From contig CT867994.1 in NCBI GenBank assembly GCA_000165425.1, positions 186,001 through 250,000 of the forward strand: a stretch of 64,000 nt of DNA, in the 5' to 3' direction. The notes below the pieces were generated by a model. The model worked only from the letters and a program-made list of their open reading frames with translations. It did not search any database and had not been told where the DNA came from. This stretch comes from Paramecium tetraurelia. Taxonomy: Eukaryota. Positions 16,748 through 27,280 of the stretch are shown here, one piece after another; position 1 is the first letter of the stretch, and every line of letters starts with the position of its first letter. A program made the translations under genes and the position numbers.

Positions 16748-18196
16748 TCATTTTAAAACACCAGCTTAAATAAGTGGGAGTAGATTAGCATTAGGCAAAC
16801 TTTGATTCCTATGTTTGTTCGGTCTAATCTTGCGTTTATTTGGAGATAACTCCTCCAGTATAGGAAGCTTTTGATTTTCCAATGAGATCTTAGATTACTG
16901 CTGAGTGATCACATCCAATAAACTCACCTCCTCTTGACTAGAATGTCTATTCGGTCGAATCTTCATTATTGGTTTTCGAATTTGCTAAATCAATTTCAAA
17001 TTTCTCATACTTTGTTCTGGTATTCGAGTATCATAAGAACTTCAGGCTAAGGCTTTCGATTAACTACATTAACCCCTCCCTTCTCTATCGACTTCTAACT
17101 AGTAACATCCTCGTAACTACCATTCACACTCATTATTGATCGAGGATTCGGACTAGCCTGTTGTGAATGAAGCGACTTTATCTGTTTCCTATTCATAAAA
17201 TCATAACAAGGCTTGGGTAATATAGATGTAAAGTAATGGTAGTTCTTTGGAAATTTGATTGTCGATAACAAAGTATTAGGTTCACTGTCTACTTTTTCTG
17301 TTTATGATATTTCCTCTTATCTTTATAATATTGAAGGAAATTGTAAGAGTTTATCACAATTAGGTCTTAGATTTGGTTTTACTTACAGCATTGATCTTAT
17401 TACATTATTGAGATCTTGAGAGTAATGCTGAGGTATTTTTGGATAGAATCCTCGTATTACTAGCTTATACAAGTCATCCATATCTTATGCTTAGAATGGA
17501 GGATTCAATGCTGACATCTCATAGATTACGCATCCCAAACTCCAGATATCTGACTTTTGATCATAAGGTTGATCCTTCCACACTTCAGGACTAGCGTAGA
17601 AGGGAGTTCCAGTCTAAGTGTAAAGCAATCCCTTCTTTGCCACCTTTGAGACATTCATATCTCCTAACTTCACATCTCCATTTTGAGATAAAAATATGTT
17701 GGCACTCTAAAGATCAATACTTCCAATACCTTCAAATCTCTATGCAGGATTTTCAATTCATGCAGTGCTTTCAAACCTCTCACGATTTAGATCAAAATAT
17801 TCCAAATTCTCTACTCTTCGATAGGTTTGTTGCTCTTTTTACTATTCATAATATTTTGATACAAATCACTTCCATCAGCAAACTCCATCACTATACTAAA
17901 TAACATAATTGCATGTCAGCATACCATAATGAATTACTCTATAAATCAATAAAGGCTTCCTTATAACAAATTATATTAGGGTGCTTAACTGATGCTAAAA
18001 TGCGAACCTCGTTCATTGCATTCTACTTCTCTTTATCATTCAGGTTCTGCAATTTTACCTTCTTCAAAGCATATTTGTGACCATCTTCCAATCTTTTTAC
18101 TTTGTAGACTGACGAGTATGCTCCTTCTCCTAAAAATTGCTAGTTTTACATTACAATACCTAATTTCGAGAGAACTTAAAAATCCTTCAAAGACAT
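16748..18196 (-). CDS. NIMA-related (NEK) protein kinase
   Basis: [51 protein letters not shown]. Confidence 0.95.
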
Positions 18197-18944
18197 TTCA
18201 GATTATGCTATATAATTTTGTTAAATTAAATTCGTATTATCAAATCAAAAACTCAATATAAAATTATACTCTAAAGCAAATTATGTACATTTACATACAC
18301 TGACAACATATTAAATCAGCTACAATAAATTAGGAGTACATAATTATCTAGAATCATTGAGTTGTTTGTAATTCTACATAGAAATTAACATTATGATTAG
18401 ATTCTCTTTACATTAAGTAATGTATACAAGATAGTTATATTTATTAAGATCTCTTTAAATTATAATCATGATAACCAGATATTCAATTTCTGAATTCTTT
18501 TAAACTATATTCTCTTTTTATTAGCTAAGCCGTTGAAATCATTTTTTGGTTTGAATATGTATATTATCAGGAAGGAGAATAATATGAGGAAACTTTGATA
18601 TCTTTGAGTTGAAATATAGTTAAGATTTAACTTAAAAAACCTATTTTTTCAATTTTATTATTGATTTGCATCTTCTTTAAAAAGAATAGTTATTATTATT
18701 GATTTATTCAAATAAATGAATATATTTAATTGGAGATTGAATTTCTATTATTTTATTTATAAATTAATAAAAATTAACAAAAAATCTGAATTGGAAAAAG
18801 AATTTAGATATTGTTGTTTTAAATCAGTTTGGAAAAGATGTATCAGTGAAAATGCTGCGAAATATAATATAATTAATTAAATATAGCAGCATTTTTAGAT
18901 ATTTATTCATAAATAAATTTTTATTTTATACAAAAATCCTTGAA

Positions 18945-19481: not shown

Positions 19482-19684
19482 ACATATTATAATGATTATA
19501 TTATAAATTGAGAGATTCCAAGTTTCTCTTTCTCTATTTCGAGGTGTTTTATGAGATCTAATCATAAAGGGGATTGTCATCTACCATCTTAGATAATATT
19601 GTTAATTAAAATAATTGATATAAAATCCATAATTTAATTAAAATTTCTTTAGACCCTATTATATTAATAAAAGTAATATAAAAT

Positions 19685-20447
19685 ATGGAAAGATATTGTT
19701 TAGTTCCAGAACATTAAAACTAACCCATTATGGCTTATTGTATTTCAGAACATTGTCGAAAATAAAATAGAGCAGTTTGTTTTAAGTGTATGACTGATTT
19801 GACACATCAATAACATACTATTATCTAAACAAATTAAGAAGAAAATTTCCTATAATAGGCCAATATAAATTATAGGGACATTTCAGATAAATTAAATGCC
19901 CTAAAACAGTAGTTTTCAACTGGGATTACTTACTTAGAAATGCTTTTGGAGAAATATTACAGACCTATGCCTTTAAGTAATTTTGGAAATAAGGAAATCA
20001 CCAATAAAATAGATTGCCTGTTAAAACTTGAAAAGGTTTAAAAACTTATAAACGACAGAATAGACAACATTTTTGAGCACACCTTGAAATCAATAAGAAT
20101 TACCTGCCATGATTTGACCTAGGGTTAAGAGTTTTAAGGTATAATCAATTTTAGAATTAGGCTATGAACTCTTGTCAAAGCAAAACTATTAGGAAGCATT
20201 GAAATTGGTAGATTAAAATTAGAAGGTCGACCCCAAAAGTGCGCTTTTGAGGTTGGCTAAAGGTAATAGAATAATAAATGTATATAGCTGAGATTTACTA
20301 AAATAGTAATAGAGTGTAAGAGGCGAGATTAATTTATTAGGAGATACTACAAACAGAATAATTTAACCCTTGGGCTTCGATTGAATTAAGTATTTGTTCA
20401 TTTCTATGGGATTAGACAAACTACTTGGTTAGCAAGAGAGAAGATGA
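19685..20447 (+). CDS. Protein with an N-terminal Cys/His zinc-finger-like motif and C-terminal TPR-like repeats
   Basis: CLVPEH...YCISEHC...VCFKC...H; later YQEALKLVDQ...DPKSALLRLAK; short introns. Confidence 0.65.
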
Positions 20448-20459
20448 TTATACAAATTA

Positions 20460-22619
20460 TCAAAAATTATCATTAACAATCTATATAAGTTTTTCAATGT
20501 CAGATTAGTAGTATTTCCAGCAATCGTCCCAAAACACTTAGACAAATCCCAACTTAGTCTTTAATTCAAATGAGGCTATGTTTCCAATAAAATGTTTAGT
20601 CTTCTTCCGATGTTTAACTGCCACTGATTAATCTTAATCAAATTATTTCTCTTTTCCTGCCAAGCTATCCAATCTAGCCGAAGTGTGCTTTGTATAAACA
20701 AATTACAATGTGAATGAGCATTTCATTTATTGCATGGTGGCATAATCACGTCTAATCATGTCCATTAATGAGTATTTATCATTCTCATCCAATAAGTAAT
20801 CATTCTTATTGAAAACGATGTTGAATTTCCCGTCCTTGACTTCTTAAGCCAAAAATCTTTTATTGTATACGCCATTTTCAATTGTGATCCAGCCTATGAT
20901 ATTTTGCTTAATTAAATTGTTTAGCACTGCCTGATGCGACCACAATTCTTCCAATAGAGGATATTTTAGTCTGAGCCTATTCAATTTGAAAACTATAGTA
21001 AAATAATTTCCATTTAAATAAAATGAATGTACTCCAAATATCACAGGTAGAAATATCCCAAGAGCACAAGTGTATTCTTAATCCCATCTTTACCATAACA
21101 ATTACAATCCACTACCTTTTGTTAATTGTCTTTTCTGATCTCGAGTTATGAACTCAATCGAAATCAAATTGTCATGAGTAATAAATAACGTGCCCTTCTA
21201 TGGCAATTCTTATGATCTCAAATTGTCTATGTTAAGAGATATATCCAGCGAATTCTTGATTTGCTTCAGATTAATACCAAAGTAATCTCTGACCTTCAAA
21301 CTCAATATGTCTTGACCATAGGTAGTTACCAAAATGTGCTTGGTCTAATTAATTTAAATTGAACGCTATTGAATCTTGTTGAATTGATAATAAGTCATCT
21401 CACTATTCTAACAATACTGATGGTCTTCTAACATCTCGTAACTTGCTTGCAACAATAATATTATTTCATTGTGTCCACTATGTTCTATGATATTCTGTAT
21501 CTCAATTTATTGAATCTATGTGGATTCCTAAGGCATCAAAGGTCCCACATCATATTGTTCTAAAGAGAGATTCAATTAGTTTTGTTTCTATTACTGGTAC
21601 AACTTAATCCCAATTATGTCTTGGCCTGAAGTTTAAATCATTATATTCTGATAAGACCTATTCTATAAATCCTCACTCTATAGATTGGTTTTGTCCAGCA
21701 GTCTCTCCTAGAGAACACAGGCCTTGGGTCTAAACAAATACTTGATATGGCGATGAATGATTGGCTCGTGGAGTCGAATTATTGTCATTGACAATGTCAT
21801 TATCGCTTGGATGATTGACAATATGTTTATCAGTTCTTTATAATTCTGGTTGTAATTCAGAATTATTGGCTAATGTATATATTAAACGTTGATTACAATT
21901 AGCAATCTTGACATTACGAATAGCCAACCGTAACTCACATTTACTTTAATGTAGGTATGCAAGTATTTCCGTATGAACTTATCCATCGAAGTCTTGTAAA
22001 TTTCAGTTTACAATATTTAAGGGGAATGTCTTTACAACTTTATCAATATTATCGATAATATTATCATCAAAACACCTCTAAGGTAGACCAAAAATTGAGC
22101 AAACACATTCTAAGATTCTAAATTGCAATCTCCTAAAATGCTTGTCACTTTATAAAAAATACCTAACACCTAGATCTTGACTCAGCAAAACCAGTAAAAT
22201 TGATATTATTATTATTAAGACCACTCCCAACATGACCTCCTCCTTCAAATTAAAACTCTTATAATTCTTGACATAAATTTGACAATATAGATTGGCTATT
22301 AATACAATGTTTAATATTGCATATAACATTGAAGCTATCAAAGAAGGGACAGCTATCAACTTACAACTTCGCTCAGTAATAATCAATTAAAAACTCTACT
22401 GCTTCGGCCCATCAACAACATAAAATTGACTCAAAATCATAAACATACTCATTATCTATTATATCAATTTTCATATACAGCTTGTGATAATAGTATGCTA
22501 AACAATATCGAACCAGGGTTATGCCTTAATCGTTTGACTTTCTACTAAACAATCATGATTATCGCGCTTAGCAATATAATAATTCCATATATTATGCTCA
22601 AAGATATAATTTTTAACAT
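20460..22619 (-). CDS. 7TM (GPCR-like) receptor fused to a degenerate PIP5K-like domain
   Basis: Seven hydrophobic segments, KRLRHNPG loop, LGVSILGDC, TM7 IRLHEP. C-terminal VRDYFGI..KNSL, LFITHDNL, LPVIFGVHS, IRRD follow the PIPK scaffold. Start codon approximate. Confidence 0.8.
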
Positions 22620-23140: not shown

Positions 23141-26100
23141 TCATTCCAATAGGATGGAACTTACACTTTTTACAGGGTGCATTCTTTTATATAGGTAAAA
23201 GAAGAAAGCTATCAATATGGCTCCTCCACAGACACTCACCAACACTATCCACCAGGTGTTTGATCTAATAATAGTTAACACATAAATTACGATTCTTCCT
23301 CTATATGATAATTGATTATATAATTCAAGGATTCTGAAGTAAAGTCGTTTCTACCAGTGATATTTATGTGCTGTCGATCTTATGCTCCTTTCACAACAAA
23401 GTATACGTAGTCATTTATGCAGTATTATAAGAAAATCTAATTTTATGTATCAACCATTAGATTATTACCCTTCAAGAAAAAGAATACAGGATCCTATTAC
23501 GATTATTCAATCTGCAAGCCTGATACTATTTTTAATTATTCAAATTCAACTGATTTTATATTGAAATTAATTTTATATACTCCGATTAAGACCTTATTTT
23601 CATTCTTATAAGAAATTGAAATTATGTTATTTCCAATATCAAACCTCTATGTTTCCCAAAATCCATACTAAATGATCATGAACTCCAAAAAGGGATTACT
23701 CTCATCATCATATACAATCCTAATTCCATATGATCCAGCATTATTAGTTAGAATGAGAAATCTTAGGTTTTGAATAAAATTCTTGGAGTGATACAAAGTT
23801 TTTATAAAAATGAATGAAGTATCACTTAGAATTGAGTAATTATTTTTTTTTATGAGGTATTTTGTATCAAAAGTCTTAATGTTAAATACTACGTAATTGT
23901 TTTCTTTATAGATTCCCCGCAATATTCCCACCAGACCAGTTTTATCTAAAAGTTAAACGATGAATTCATCTCCTTCACTCTAAATAATGTCAAAATCTAC
24001 TGTATGAAATAGACTTTGTAACTTTAGATAAATTTCATTGATTTAAATTATATTCTTAATAGAAAATTAACCATTCTCAATTACAATATCTCCAATTCTT
24101 AATGTGTTTCCAGTCAAAAATACGATCTTTTTATTTATGCATCCAATCTTCTTAGTTAAACCCTCAAATTAATATAGGAATCCTAAAGGGAAACCATCAT
24201 CAACTTTAGTAATATGAAGGTAGGATTCAGTCAAACTATTGCACAACGTGTAATAGAAAACGTTATCTTAAAATGTGTATGTGCAAGTGAATTAGGGCTT
24301 AACATCTAAATTAATGAGCGAAGTTAATTCGAATTATGAATCTAATAACATAAATGATTAAGCTCCTTGTAACAATTGAGTTACATTGTTTAGGGATATT
24401 AGATTATTAAATTGCAATCCATTTGATAATTAATCATCTGTCTTTTCTATTAGATTTTGGATTGTTACTACATCCTTAATCTCACTTTCAGCAATGAAAT
24501 CTATTACCTGACCTTCATACCATTTATGAATCATAGGTATTTTCAATTCATACTTATGTAGGTGTAATTTGTTTTTGTCTTTGAGTTCCTTTTCAAGAAG
24601 TTCTATTTATGTAAATGTATTAATCTATTTTATTGATTAATGTATTTCTAAGCTCTACTTTTTGTTATGCACCTATATTATTGCTGTCATTTCCTAGATA
24701 TATCTATTATTTTATTATTCAAATTGATATGATATGATTGGATTTTAATGAATCTGTTTTAGTATAAATTCATTTTAGTATAAAATTACAAATAACTGCT
24801 TATTTGATACGAAAGGAGATATTATAATTTTTTATTTTTAGATCTTTATATTCGTAGTGCTAATTGATATTTGAAACTTTAAAGAATTATGAGCTTAAGT
24901 ATTGAACTGATACACTAGTATCTCCTACTATTCAGTTTGAATCAATAAATAATTATTTATACATTTGGCATTTATTGGTTAAAATAATTGTTATGAATAA
25001 GTAGGAATTTTATGGATCAAATACACTTCTTAGTAAAAGTTATATTCAAATATGATATTATCTTTTATTAAAATAAATGTCTAATCTGATATTGCAAGGA
25101 AATCAGTTTCGCTTATTTCAAGATTTAGGTAATATTTGATGTAAAAATCAGTAAATAAATTTGTAATCAATAAGCTGTTTTTATTATTTATAAGCATTGT
25201 GTCTCTCTTTGAATTAATGTATAATCTTTGAGGTTCGAAATTGATATTGTAAGAACACATATTAAAAAATGATTCATCAATCAAAATATAATCATCACTT
25301 TTTATTATATTTTGATAAAACCGGATTTAATTATCAAATACCAGATATAATGATGAATGATCAAATAGTACTTATTTAACAGATTTCTCAAGAACAAGTT
25401 GCTTTATTGTACTATTAGCAGTCTATAAGGAAACCGTTTTTTAAGTCTCTAACACTACAAAATAAAGTATTTTATCTATCAACTATGATTAAAAGTTGTC
25501 TTCATTAAGATTGATCTTGATTTACATTGCTGATTAAATTGTACAGATTAATTAAGTTTATATTTCGCATTTATTTATATGCAATTGTTAAGTATTTTAA
25601 AATTATTGTAGTAAATAATAATAAATATTATCGATTTTTACAACATCTTAATAGATTATTGAATCTTTGAATTAAATATTAAAAGGATAGTTTGAAATTT
25701 ATTAGATGGAACAATCTGATATACATACATAATTTTAATTTGGCCCTGATATCATCAATTACAATTCTTATTAATGAAAAGGAGATCCAATAGTAATTGA
25801 TTTATTCTCATGATCAGATATAAGTGTTTCTTAATTTTCTTATATAGTTTGCAAAGTAATAGAAGTGTTGCATGAACCATGAATATCTTTTCCTTAAATT
25901 GTAAATTACTGATATGTATTAATTGTTTCACTATCATCTGTATTTAACAGTAGGTATCCATTATTTAGTAGATAAAAATGTGAATACTCGTTTGAAAGCG
26001 TAAGTAAATAATGTTATGAGCATAAATAAGTTATAATACCTTCGCTATTGATCTTTTGGAGTAGATATCCAGAATAAATACTATAGCTTGAGAAGTATCC

Positions 26101-27090
26101 TGTGTTATGCAAAATGATATATTGTCCTGAGATGTGAACCTTGCCTTTCTCATCCACATTGAAATCCAAAGAAATAGTTTGAATATAATGTTAATGTTGA
26201 TATACTATGATTTTTTAAGTTTGAAGGAAAATCAAAAACCCATTCTCTTCATCTATATCAAAAGATATAATCTTATCTGCCTTAATTGCTGTTGCTTGAT
26301 TACTTTCATATTTGAACAGGCCCAAAGTTTAATCAAGGAAGTAAATTTCATTATTCTTTAATATTTTGTACTGATTTATCTTGAGGGATATAGATTCTTT
26401 TTATGGAAATAGCAAATGAACTGTTGAATTGTTTATCTGTGATTTAAGATCTAATTTAGTGTAATCTTCATTCCATTTATAAATCGAAAGAACTGATTGG
26501 GATTAATTGCTTTCCAATTTGTAAAAATATTTCAAAGTATTAGTAATTTAAATAGATTTTACATTGAGAAAGTTTTCAAGTTCAATCTAATTTAATAATT
26601 CTCCATTTTTATTATGGATGTACACTAAGTTTTGGGTCTCTTTTTAACACACAATAATAAAACTATCATCCTTGAAATAATCAAAATCAAAGCAATTCAA
26701 AGATAGATCTTGCTTTTCTATATATAAAACTGTTCTAAATTATGGAGTATTTAAGTTAATTTATGGATTGGAATATGTAATATTTACAGAAATGAAGTTT
26801 TCTGCCATGTATGCAAATTAATTCAGCCATTTTTTGTTGGTATTAAGTAATGGTTTAAAACTAATGGGATATGTTTATTCAGGTAATTCTAGTTTATCAT
26901 ATTCGTCGAATGGTTAGATTATGTCAAAATCTGTTTGTATTGTAGAATACACTATGTTATTGCCAATAAACACTTAAGATAAATTTAATCTTATTGTTTC
27001 ATTCTATGTAATTACATAGAGGAGCTTTTCATTCATAGAAAAGCATGCCAAAGAGATGAAAATTGGAAAAATTAAAATTTATGTTAACAT
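23141..27090 (-). CDS. Large type-I membrane protein (~1300 aa)
   Basis: Signal peptide MLTQILIFPIFISLAC, long extracellular region, TM WWIVLVSVCGGAILIAFFFYLY, short tail ending SILLE-TGA. Confidence 0.75.
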
Positions 27091-27280
27091 ATTTTATTTA
27101 AAGAATATTCTAAACAAGTTTTCAGCTAGACAGTGTGTAAATAAATCAAATTTGCTATTTCAATTTTCTCTATCTATCTTTAAATTTAGTTCCTTCTCAT
27201 GAATATTTATACAACATATATTGCATAAAAATGTAATAATTTATTCTTTGTATAATTAATCTTTTTATATCTGAGACAGA

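What the first reader, a model, noticed from the sequence alone, without database searches (positions are those of the whole stretch)
20460..22619. 7TM receptor fused to an apparently dead PIP-kinase domain (GPCR-pseudoPIPK)
Seen: seven TM segments, then a domain that keeps the PIP5K scaffold (VRDYFGIN..KNSL, LFITHD, LPVIFGVHS, IRRD). Every catalytic element is replaced: GKSGS is absent, the IIK lysine reads ISIE, DLKGS reads WITIENG, DYSLL reads SFTLQ. Known: GPCR-PIPK fusions occur in oomycetes, Dictyostelium (RpkA) and ciliates. Inference: an intact ORF with a dead kinase suggests a non-catalytic regulatory or dimerising receptor subtype.
Basis: partly seen in the sequence, partly recalled or inferred. 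Interest (0 to 1): 0.75.

Follow-up and report, generated by a model that had tools for sequence, protein, structure and literature searches.

The report
Paramecium receptor with dead lipid kinase
This Paramecium gene encodes a seven-helix membrane receptor whose inner tail is a lipid-kinase fold that has lost the means to catalyse yet is strongly conserved, and it belongs to an overlooked family of such receptors that probably regulate lipid signalling instead of performing it.

Summary
Real gene: P. tetraurelia GSPATT00028910001, minus strand 22619-20460, code 6, three short introns, 695 aa. It has seven TM helices, then a domain that Pfam misses but that folds as a PIP kinase (Z 17.8 to PIP5K1A; best non-PIPK hit Z 5.0). 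It is very likely dead: catalytic Lys is Glu (17 of 17 family sequences), DLKGS and DYS are gone, and G-loop and specificity loop are lost.

It is not a one-off. At least 7 such genes lie in this genome, beside 15 published active GPCR-PIPKs. dN/dS in the dead domain is 0.04-0.12, and relatives occur in unnamed eukaryotes. Dead forms group together in kinase and 7TM trees (7TM support moderate). No G-alpha passed cut-off.

Best reading: a non-catalytic receptor whose tail binds and tunes a partner, most likely active PIP kinases. That last step is inferred. Caveat: the one RNA contig spanning intron 2 uses a frameshifting acceptor, so this copy may often be mis-spliced. I found no paper describing a GPCR-pseudoPIPK. 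Verdict: new variant of a known kind.

The parts
22479..22619 (-). Exon 1 (ATG; TM1 and start of TM2). The public annotation GSPATT00028910001 lacks the first 48 residues.
   Evidence: full-length orthologue/paralogue N-termini
22456..22478 (-). Intron 1, 23 nt, GTA..TAG
   Evidence: removed in RNA contig X3; same position in two paralogues
22163..22455 (-). Exon 2 (TM2-TM4, conserved Cys at top of TM3)
22141..22162 (-). Intron 2, productive form, 22 nt, GTA..AAG (weak acceptor). A TAG 8 nt further on gives a 30-nt form (22133-22162) that frameshifts to a 187-aa product.
   Evidence: 22-nt form: frame, paralogues with 22-nt GTA..TAG, annotation P0003. 30-nt form: RNA contig X3; product length
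21897..22140 (-). Exon 3 (G-x-C loop, TM5, most of TM6)
21870..21896 (-). Intron 3, 27 nt, in frame and stop-free (hidden inside the long ORF)
   Evidence: removed in contig X3; 25 nt in paralogue L003
20460..21869 (-). Exon 4 (TM7 with IRLHEP, linker, pseudo-PIPK domain, TGA)
   Evidence: sense-strand polyA reads in 3 of 3 raw runs, depth about 1-7
21777..22610 (-). 7TM domain, residues 4-257, homologous to the 7TM of active GPCR-PIPKs
   Evidence: hydropathy; family HMM hits loci L035/L038/L033 at E 5e-13 to 1e-10, best shuffle 0.17
20463..21482 (-). Pseudo-PIPK domain, residues about 356-695
   Evidence: model and fold searches; graded alignment to active PIPKs
21153..21155 (-). E465, at the site of the ATP-binding Lys of the IIK motif (K150 of PIP4K2B)
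   Evidence: E in 17 of 17 family sequences; acidic in 4 of 4 distant fragments that cover it
21108..21137 (-). Family signature QKRQLTKG(S/G)G in the alphaC-equivalent helix, with invariant K472
   Evidence: K in 17 of 17; motif kept in distant fragments
20871..20990 (-). Hinge plus family-specific two-helix insert (KLNR..YP..W..NIIGW) and TIENG in place of DLKGS
20715..20717 (-). S611, at the site of the catalytic Asp of MDYSL (D278)
   Evidence: S in 11, N in 6 of 17; alignment
20526..20528 (-). D674, the retained IID Asp (D369). Only 21 residues follow it, against 45-50 in nine active PIPKs, so the activation/specificity loop is deleted.

Best explanation
A maintained, non-catalytic offshoot of the GPCR-PIPK (type IV PIP kinase) receptors. 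Step 1 (shown): the protein is a 7TM domain fused to a PIP-kinase fold. Step 2 (shown by sequence; activity not measured): it cannot do normal PIPK chemistry, having lost the G-loop, the ATP-binding Lys, DLKGS, the MDYSL Asp and the substrate-specificity loop. Step 3 (shown for the family): the dead domain is under strong purifying selection, as conserved as or more conserved than the 7TM part, with its own invariant motifs around the former ATP cleft. Step 4 (inferred): such a domain works as a binding and allosteric module. Step 5 (inferred, the weakest): the partner is an active PIP kinase, most simply one of the 15 active GPCR-PIPKs in the same membranes. The dead receptor would raise or damp its PIP2 output, much as PIP4K damps PIP5K without catalysis, with the 7TM part supplying location or ligand control. 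My odds: steps 1-3 about 0.9, a non-catalytic binding role of any kind about 0.8, the PIPK-partner version about 0.45.
For: Fold. Motif loss; K150, D278 and D369 are called essential in PMC3823935 (section 13). Selection: dN/dS 0.115 (L002/L003), 0.043 (L007/L008), 0.094 (L052/L053); identity in domain vs 7TM 84 vs 72%, 76 vs 75%, 64 vs 60%. Family motifs persist in 16 fragments only 35-49% identical to any Paramecium member. Origin from GPCR-PIPKs: 7TM HMM hits, ESM Atlas neighbours, graded intermediates that still pass the Pfam PIP5K cut-off. No G-alpha over cut-off in this genome, so output through a G protein is unlikely. Precedent for non-catalytic control of PIP5K: PMC6619495 and PMC13416441 (abstracts). 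The same idea was offered for soluble pseudo-PIPKs in PMC3823935 (section 16).
Against: No partner, ligand, location or phenotype is shown. The PIP4K motif said to bind PIP5K (N-terminal VML-phi-FPDD, abstract) is not visible in the 695-aa sequence, so any heteromer would use another surface. Active-site correspondences rest on alignments plus the model's strand register; I had no coordinates to superpose. This copy's only spanning RNA contig is frameshifted and expression is low. No catalytic activity has been measured even for active GPCR-PIPKs (PMC12716839 section 17).
Confidence: 0.45

Rival explanations
1. Non-catalytic, but the partner is not a PIP kinase. The remodelled cleft (E465, D674, invariant K472, TKGGG and YP/NIIGW motifs) binds a cation, a small ligand, a lipid head group or an unrelated effector protein, and so acts as the receptor's G-protein-free output or as a sensor that feeds back on the 7TM bundle.
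For: The invariant residues are family-specific and map by alignment to the alphaC helix, the hinge and the insert beside the ATP site. The metal-site Asp is kept in both Paramecium subgroups. No G-alpha over cut-off.
Against: The distant group P0042/P0044-47 lacks that Asp and the TKGGG motif, so a shared ligand site is not clade-wide. The basic specificity loop that binds PIP head groups is deleted here. No binding data.
Confidence: 0.33
2. This particular copy is a weak or fading duplicate. Its intron-2 acceptor is AAG, most transcripts use the TAG 8 nt downstream and end at residue 187, and the work is done by the paralogues on C695 and C10.
For: The 1 RNA contig that spans the gene (of 4 runs laid) has the 30-nt cut; depth over exon 4 is about 1-7 against 10-60 for the neighbouring gene. 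The paralogues have TAG at the 22-nt acceptor. The syntenic twin region on C64 has no copy. G479S breaks an otherwise nearly invariant GGG. Two orthologue annotations skip this exon edge.
Against: No frame damage elsewhere in 695 codons. 94% identity to the P. octaurelia orthologue, like the other two orthologue pairs (95%, 94%), and no excess of changes (18 vs 15, p 0.73). Only 70-77% of Paramecium introns are GTn-TAG, and cryptic TAGs are purged mainly at 3n distances (PMC9612004 passages). Stop-bearing variants pile up when NMD is off (bioRxiv 114215 passages); the condition of run X3 is not on record. The three raw runs have almost no reads at this junction (depth 0-1).
Confidence: 0.14
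3. An atypical but active kinase: invariant K472 replaces the lost Lys (as a moved Lys does in WNK kinases, recalled) and D674 still binds metal, giving low activity on a lipid or other substrate.
For: K472 and D674 are invariant, and the Lys at this position is shared by all 12 dead sequences aligned. PMC3823935 raises altered catalysis as a possibility.
Against: The MDYSL Asp is Ser/Asn in 17 of 17; DLKGS, G-loop and specificity loop are all gone. An acidic residue sits where ATP phosphates bind. No compensating invariant Asp lies near the DYS strand.
Confidence: 0.06
4. The domain is not PIPK-derived; the likeness is chance.
For: No Pfam PIP5K hit for the query. An HMM of 19 active P. tetraurelia PIPKs scores the family no better than shuffles. 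Direct profile-profile probability is only 69-70%.
Against: Z 17.8 over 258 residues from a model with no PIPK rows. Chain of intermediates: family to P0042 group 95%, P0042 group to active PIPKs 97%; C52 paralogue passes the Pfam cut-off.
Confidence: 0.02

Closest known systems
GPCR-PIPKs / type IV PIP kinases (Dictyostelium RpkA, Phytophthora GK1-12, 15 P. tetraurelia genes; PMC5784254, PMC3823935)
   Same: N-terminal 7TM, linker, C-terminal PIPK fold. The 7TM is homologous to that of active P. tetraurelia members.
   Different: No catalytic Lys, DLKGS, MDYSL Asp, G-loop, specificity loop or LRxGI motif. Invisible to Pfam. Not among the 15 listed genes. PMC3823935 reports IIK, MDYSL and IID kept in all its group 2 (transmembrane) PIPKs.
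Protist pseudo-PIPKs (Tetrahymena TtPIPK1c and d; PMC3823935 section 16)
   Same: PIPK domain lacking catalytic residues, degraded G-loop and activation loop; proposed to regulate active PIPKs by heterodimers.
   Different: Those belong to the EF-hand/coiled-coil PIPK1 group, score Pfam E 1e-45 to 1e-53 and lose both Asp residues. This one is receptor-fused, far more diverged, loses the Lys and one Asp and keeps the IID Asp. The paper's tables S2 and S3 could not be read, so a 7TM entry among its other pseudo-PIPKs is not excluded.
Mammalian PIP4Ks acting without catalysis (PMC6619495, PMC13416441, abstracts); PIP5KL1/PIPKH (recalled, not read)
   Same: A PIPK fold that controls PIP5K output by binding.
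   Different: Soluble, PIP4Ks are still enzymes, and their binding motif is not seen here. This is a works-like comparison, not membership.
Receptor pseudokinases such as HER3 or plant BIR2 (recalled)
   Same: Membrane receptor with a conserved dead kinase domain beside active paralogues.
   Different: Single-pass, protein-kinase fold; here seven-pass and lipid-kinase fold. Analogy only.

Membership tests
GPCR-PIPK (type IV PIPK) | N-terminal 7TM domain | tested here: met
   Seven hydrophobic segments in 4-257; the full-length model was low-confidence (pLDDT 48) and adds little
GPCR-PIPK (type IV PIPK) | 7TM homologous to that of known GPCR-PIPKs | tested here: met
   Family 7TM HMM hits active loci L035, L038, L033 at E 5e-13, 4e-11, 1e-10 among 1416 sequences (half shuffled); best shuffle 0.17
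GPCR-PIPK (type IV PIPK) | C-terminal PIPK fold | tested here: met
   Z 17.8, rmsd 3.9, 258 aligned to 4tz7; next non-PIPK Z 5.0; Foldseek E 1e-10
GPCR-PIPK (type IV PIPK) | Pfam PF01504 match over cut-off (the published inclusion route) | tested here: not met
   No hit for the query; paralogue L008 17.8 bits, cut-off 27; paralogue L053 28.5 bits
GPCR-PIPK (type IV PIPK) | LR-x9-GI linker motif | tested here: not met
   By inspection of the 695-aa sequence. Also absent from 9 of 60 published non-oomycete members, mostly ciliate
Active PIPK | ATP-binding Lys of IIK (K150) | tested here: not met
   Glu in 17 of 17
Active PIPK | DLKGS motif | tested here: not met
   TIENG; Asp site is Thr 11, Ser 6 of 17
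Active PIPK | Catalytic Asp of MDYSL (D278) | tested here: not met
   Ser 11, Asn 6 of 17
Active PIPK | Asp of IID (D369) | tested here: met
   D674; Asp in 16 of 17, one truncated; register
Active PIPK | Activation/specificity loop with KK motif | tested here: not met
   21 residues after the IID Asp (29 in L007/L008) against 45-50 in 9 of 9 active PIPKs measured
Active PIPK | Measured lipid-kinase activity | not testable with these tools
   needs an assay
Pseudo-PIPK (as defined in PMC3823935) | PIPK domain lacking at least one of the three catalytic residues, with degraded G-loop and activation loop | tested here: met
   Two of three lost; definition read
Functional gene (not pseudogene) | Purifying selection on the coding sequence | tested here: met
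   Paralogue dN/dS 0.04-0.12; query vs paralogues pN 0.21, pS saturated at 0.81; protein relative-rate test. No orthologue DNA was available for a direct dN/dS on this copy
Functional gene (not pseudogene) | Productively spliced full-length mRNA | tested here: inconclusive
   Sense reads in 3 of 3 raw runs; introns 1 and 3 confirmed; intron 2 seen only in the frameshifting form, in 1 contig
G-protein-coupled receptor in the strict sense | A G-alpha subunit to couple to | tested here: inconclusive
   5 weak PF00503 matches in the genome, none over cut-off; the search is exon by exon and its controls were prokaryotic

The most novel reading that the evidence does not exclude
An old, so far unseen clade of receptor pseudo-lipid-kinases arose once from GPCR-PIPKs, makes up about a third of this receptor family in Paramecium (7 dead beside 15 active), and works as obligate partners of the active receptors: a G-protein-free receptor/co-receptor system for PIP2 control. 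In its Paramecium-type branch the old ATP cleft has been rebuilt (Lys to Glu, new invariant Lys one turn of helix away, metal Asp kept) into a new binding site.
Probability: 0.3. Interest if true: 0.75.

Novelty: new variant of a known kind. Interest (0 to 1): 0.58.

Why it matters
How GPCR-PIPKs signal is open: no ligand, no measured activity, no known link to G proteins (PMC12716839 section 17). A conserved clade that keeps the receptor and the fold but drops catalysis shows that these receptors have a job apart from making PIP2. It offers natural dead controls and candidate partners in a species where genes are easily silenced (recalled). It also shows that Pfam-gated surveys undercount the family: at least 7 genes in P. 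tetraurelia are missing from the published list of 15. Both ingredients are known separately (GPCR-PIPKs; non-receptor pseudo-PIPKs), so this is a new combination, not a new kind of system.

Tried and rejected
Pfam and PDB sequence searches of the domain gave no PIPK hit. An HMM of 19 active P. tetraurelia PIPK stretches did not separate the family from shuffles. The near-full-length model (annotation P0003, lacking the first 48 aa) was poor (pLDDT 48), though it still matched PIP4Ks. Homodimer prediction of the dead domain: no verdict, neither support nor evidence against; no heteromer was tried. Two scans of JGI metagenome contigs confirmed no locus (0 of 364 and 0 of 37 pattern matches), so the distant relatives have no genomic context and no taxon. 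The sequencing-run search listed no holder on record as RNA. P0046 found nothing in this genome. The 7TM profile matched rhodopsin end to end only at E 0.19, not used. An apparent frameshift in paralogue L003 was rejected: it is a 25-nt version of intron 3. An eighth TM (493-511) was rejected as a kinase strand. P0038 (2339 aa, E 1e-4) was not examined. Literature: searches found no paper describing a 7TM-fused pseudo-PIPK. The library lacks most subscription papers, and tables S1-S3 of PMC3823935 could not be read. Earlier findings of this scan held nothing on this sequence or genome.

Full report
GENE. The window is G000:C11:186001-250000 of a 72-Mb, 697-contig genome. The protein database names the gene as Paramecium tetraurelia GSPATT00028910001 / A0BH58, annotated only as a transmembrane protein and lacking the first 48 residues. 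It lies on the minus strand from ATG 22619 to TGA 20460 and reads in code 6. It has three introns, of 23, 22 and 27 nt (22456-22478, 22141-22162, 21870-21896), and encodes 695 aa. The third intron is in frame and hidden in the long ORF. It is proven by a 25-nt version in paralogue L003 and by an RNA contig.

7TM PART. Seven hydrophobic segments lie between residues 4 and 257. An HMM of this region from 16 family sequences hits three active GPCR-PIPK loci of the same genome at E 5e-13 to 1e-10; among 1416 sequences, half of them shuffles, the best shuffle scored 0.17. Pfam gives no GPCR family for it. The two Cys typical of such receptors (top of TM3, second outer loop; the label is recalled) are invariant in 5 of 5 diverse members. 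PF00503 (G-alpha) has 5 weak matches in the genome and none over the cut-off, so 'GPCR' here names a fold, not a shown coupling.

THE FOLD IS A PIP KINASE. Sequence tools largely miss it. There is no Pfam or PDB hit, and an HMM from 19 active PIPK stretches does no better than shuffles. Profile-profile comparison gives probability 70%, P 4e-5, against 0.36 for the reversed control. Structure settles it. A model of residues 335-695, built from 22 family rows and no active kinase (pLDDT 74), matches PIP4Ks by Foldseek (E 1e-10). Among 48,161 chains it matches PIP5K1A, PIP4K2C and PIKfyve at Z 17.8 (rmsd 3.9, 258 aligned), 16.0 and 12.8, with the next hit at 5.0. Intermediates close the sequence gap: family to the P0042 group 95%, P0042 group to active PIPKs 97%. 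All five P0042-group proteins and the C52 paralogue pass the Pfam PIP5K cut-off. The ESM Atlas puts PIP5K and 7TM-PIP5K clusters among the nearest neighbours.

IT IS VERY LIKELY DEAD, BUT NOT IN EVERY RESIDUE. PMC3823935 names K150, D278 and D369 as essential. I counted states in 17 sequences: 5 P. tetraurelia gene models and 12 database proteins from sister species, leaving out 4 database copies of the same P. tetraurelia genes. The Lys site is Glu in 17 of 17. The DLKGS Asp is Thr or Ser in 17 of 17. The MDYSL Asp is Ser (11) or Asn (6). The IID Asp is kept in 16 of 17, the other being truncated. The joint alignment fixes the register: VFWDDCW, IYFDNFW, GVLDQFW and GIIDYLQ stack on the same Asp. 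So 'every catalytic element is replaced' is wrong by one. The G-loop is gone, and only 21 residues follow D674 against 45-50 in 9 of 9 active PIPKs measured, so the specificity loop is deleted. In their place the family has its own invariant motifs: KxxLTKGGG in the alphaC-equivalent helix and a two-helix insert after the hinge (LN..YP..W..NIIGW). These correspondences come from alignments and the model's strand order; I had no coordinates.

A FAMILY UNDER SELECTION. Seven such genes were found in this genome, a lower bound: the query, C695, C10, C36, C102, C29 and C52. The last pair has Ser for the Lys and GYS for DYS, and keeps the IID Asp. None is among the 15 P. tetraurelia GPCR-PIPKs in table S2b of PMC5784254 (all 15 rows seen, cells cut at about 400 letters; 5 motif searches empty). 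dN/dS in the dead domain is 0.115 (95% bootstrap 0.07-0.17) for L002/L003, 0.043 (0-0.08) for L007/L008 and 0.094 for L052/L053. For the query against its paralogues pN is 0.21 and pS is saturated (0.81). The dead domain is as conserved as the 7TM part or more so (84 vs 72%, 76 vs 75%, 64 vs 60%). The query is 94% identical to its P. octaurelia orthologue and shows no excess of changes (18 vs 15 in 669 sites, p 0.73).

BEYOND PARAMECIUM. A profile search of 1.84 billion representatives returned 23 proteins: 2 Paramecium members, P0035, one unexamined long protein, and 19 short fragments. Sixteen of the 19 are only 35-49% identical to any Paramecium member yet carry the family motifs. The Lys site is acidic in 4 of 4 fragments that cover it and the IID Asp is kept in 2 of 2. 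A second group (P0042, P0044-P0047; open under the standard code) has 7TM plus a PIPK domain lacking the Lys, DLKGS and the IID Asp, and the MDYSL Asp in 4 of 5. Their organisms are not named and I got no DNA context. Dead forms fall on one side of a branch in the kinase-domain tree (12 dead vs 12 active, SH-aLRT 100) and in 7TM-only trees (91; 80/88 with the mixture model). Both trees have long branches, no outgroup and partly unspliced active rows. A single loss of catalysis is therefore suggested, not shown.

EXPRESSION AND A CAVEAT. Three raw polyA runs cover exon 4 on the sense strand at depth about 1-7, against 10-60 for the neighbouring gene. One assembled contig (run X3, RNA by guess) spans 20499-22595 with introns 1 and 3 removed as predicted. 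It cuts intron 2 as 30 nt, at a TAG 8 nt past the AAG acceptor, which frameshifts to a 187-aa product. The raw runs have depth 0-1 there. The paralogues have TAG at the 22-nt site and the same downstream TAG. Non-TAG acceptors are common (GTn-TAG is 70-77% of introns) and cryptic TAGs at non-3n distance are little purged (PMC9612004). Stop-bearing variants rise when NMD is off (bioRxiv 114215). With the protein-level evidence I read this as frequent mis-splicing of a low-expressed but live gene. A fading copy (about 0.14) is not excluded. It would not touch the family result.

MECHANISM. Shown: receptor plus PIPK fold, loss of catalytic and substrate elements, strong conservation. Inferred: the tail is a binding module. 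My best guess (0.45) is that it binds active PIP kinases, most simply its active GPCR-PIPK relatives, and tunes PIP2 output. Kinase-dead PIP4K does this to PIP5K (abstracts of PMC6619495 and PMC13416441), and PMC3823935 proposed it for its pseudo-PIPKs. The main rival (0.33) is that the rebuilt cleft binds another ligand or effector. Atypical catalysis (0.06) and chance likeness (0.02) are unlikely.

WHAT IS KNOWN. GPCR-PIPKs are known, and so are pseudo-PIPKs of the non-receptor PIPK1 group. PMC3823935 states that its transmembrane group keeps all three motifs. Six literature searches found no receptor-fused pseudo-PIPK; the library is partial and that paper's tables S1-S3 were unreadable. 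Papers seen: PMC5784254 (abstract, passages, section 8, supplement rows); PMC3823935 (passages, section 13 part 1, section 16); PMC12716839 (passages, section 17); PMC9612004, PMC10463195 and bioRxiv 114215 (passages); PMC6619495 and PMC13416441 (abstract and outline). HER3, BIR2, WNK and PIP5KL1 comparisons are recalled. By the defining tests this is a derivative of the GPCR-PIPKs and a pseudo-PIPK, not an active type IV kinase.

VERDICT. Observation partly confirmed, interpretation partly supported. New variant of a known kind; interest 0.58.

Noticed in passing
G000:C29:71724-73706 (L052) and G000:C52:202508-204491 (L053): A further pair of 7TM-pseudoPIPK genes (Lys to Ser, DLKGS lost, DYS to GYS, IID Asp kept; dN/dS 0.09), missed by the genome-wide PF01504 search; best intermediates to active kinases.
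   Followed up: partly
proteins P0042, P0044-P0047 (unnamed assemblies): A second 7TM-pseudoPIPK group, open under the standard code, with the Lys, DLKGS and IID Asp lost but a Lys-rich activation-loop region kept; organism unknown.
   Followed up: partly
L042 (G000:C64:64500-74450): The syntenic twin region keeps neighbours on both sides (88% and 70% DNA identity) but has no copy of this gene; only a 21-residue match to the C-terminus at E 1.0, in the expected place.
   Followed up: partly
L002; annotation GSPATT00026878001 (P0011): The public model of this paralogue appears to use the 30-nt acceptor and runs out of frame for about 35 residues; orthologue models P0004 and P0007 also drop five residues at this exon edge.
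   Followed up: partly
window 17005-18244 (-): A NIMA/NEK-type protein kinase gene (label from its motifs, recalled); a similar kinase lies beside paralogue L002, which points to a genome-duplication origin of the pair.
   Followed up: no
window 19627-20390 (+): Convergent neighbour with a Cys/His-rich N-terminus (CLVPEH..CISEHC), about ten times better covered by polyA reads than the receptor gene; its 3' end lies within about 70 bases of the receptor's stop.
   Followed up: no
window 23236-27159 (-): A 1307-codon frame with a signal-peptide-like start, upstream on the same strand; uncharacterised.
   Followed up: no
L029 (G000:C313:20654-21193): A PIPK with a degraded G-loop (GRNLQS) but intact Lys, DLKG, DYS and IID; long branch.
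   Followed up: no
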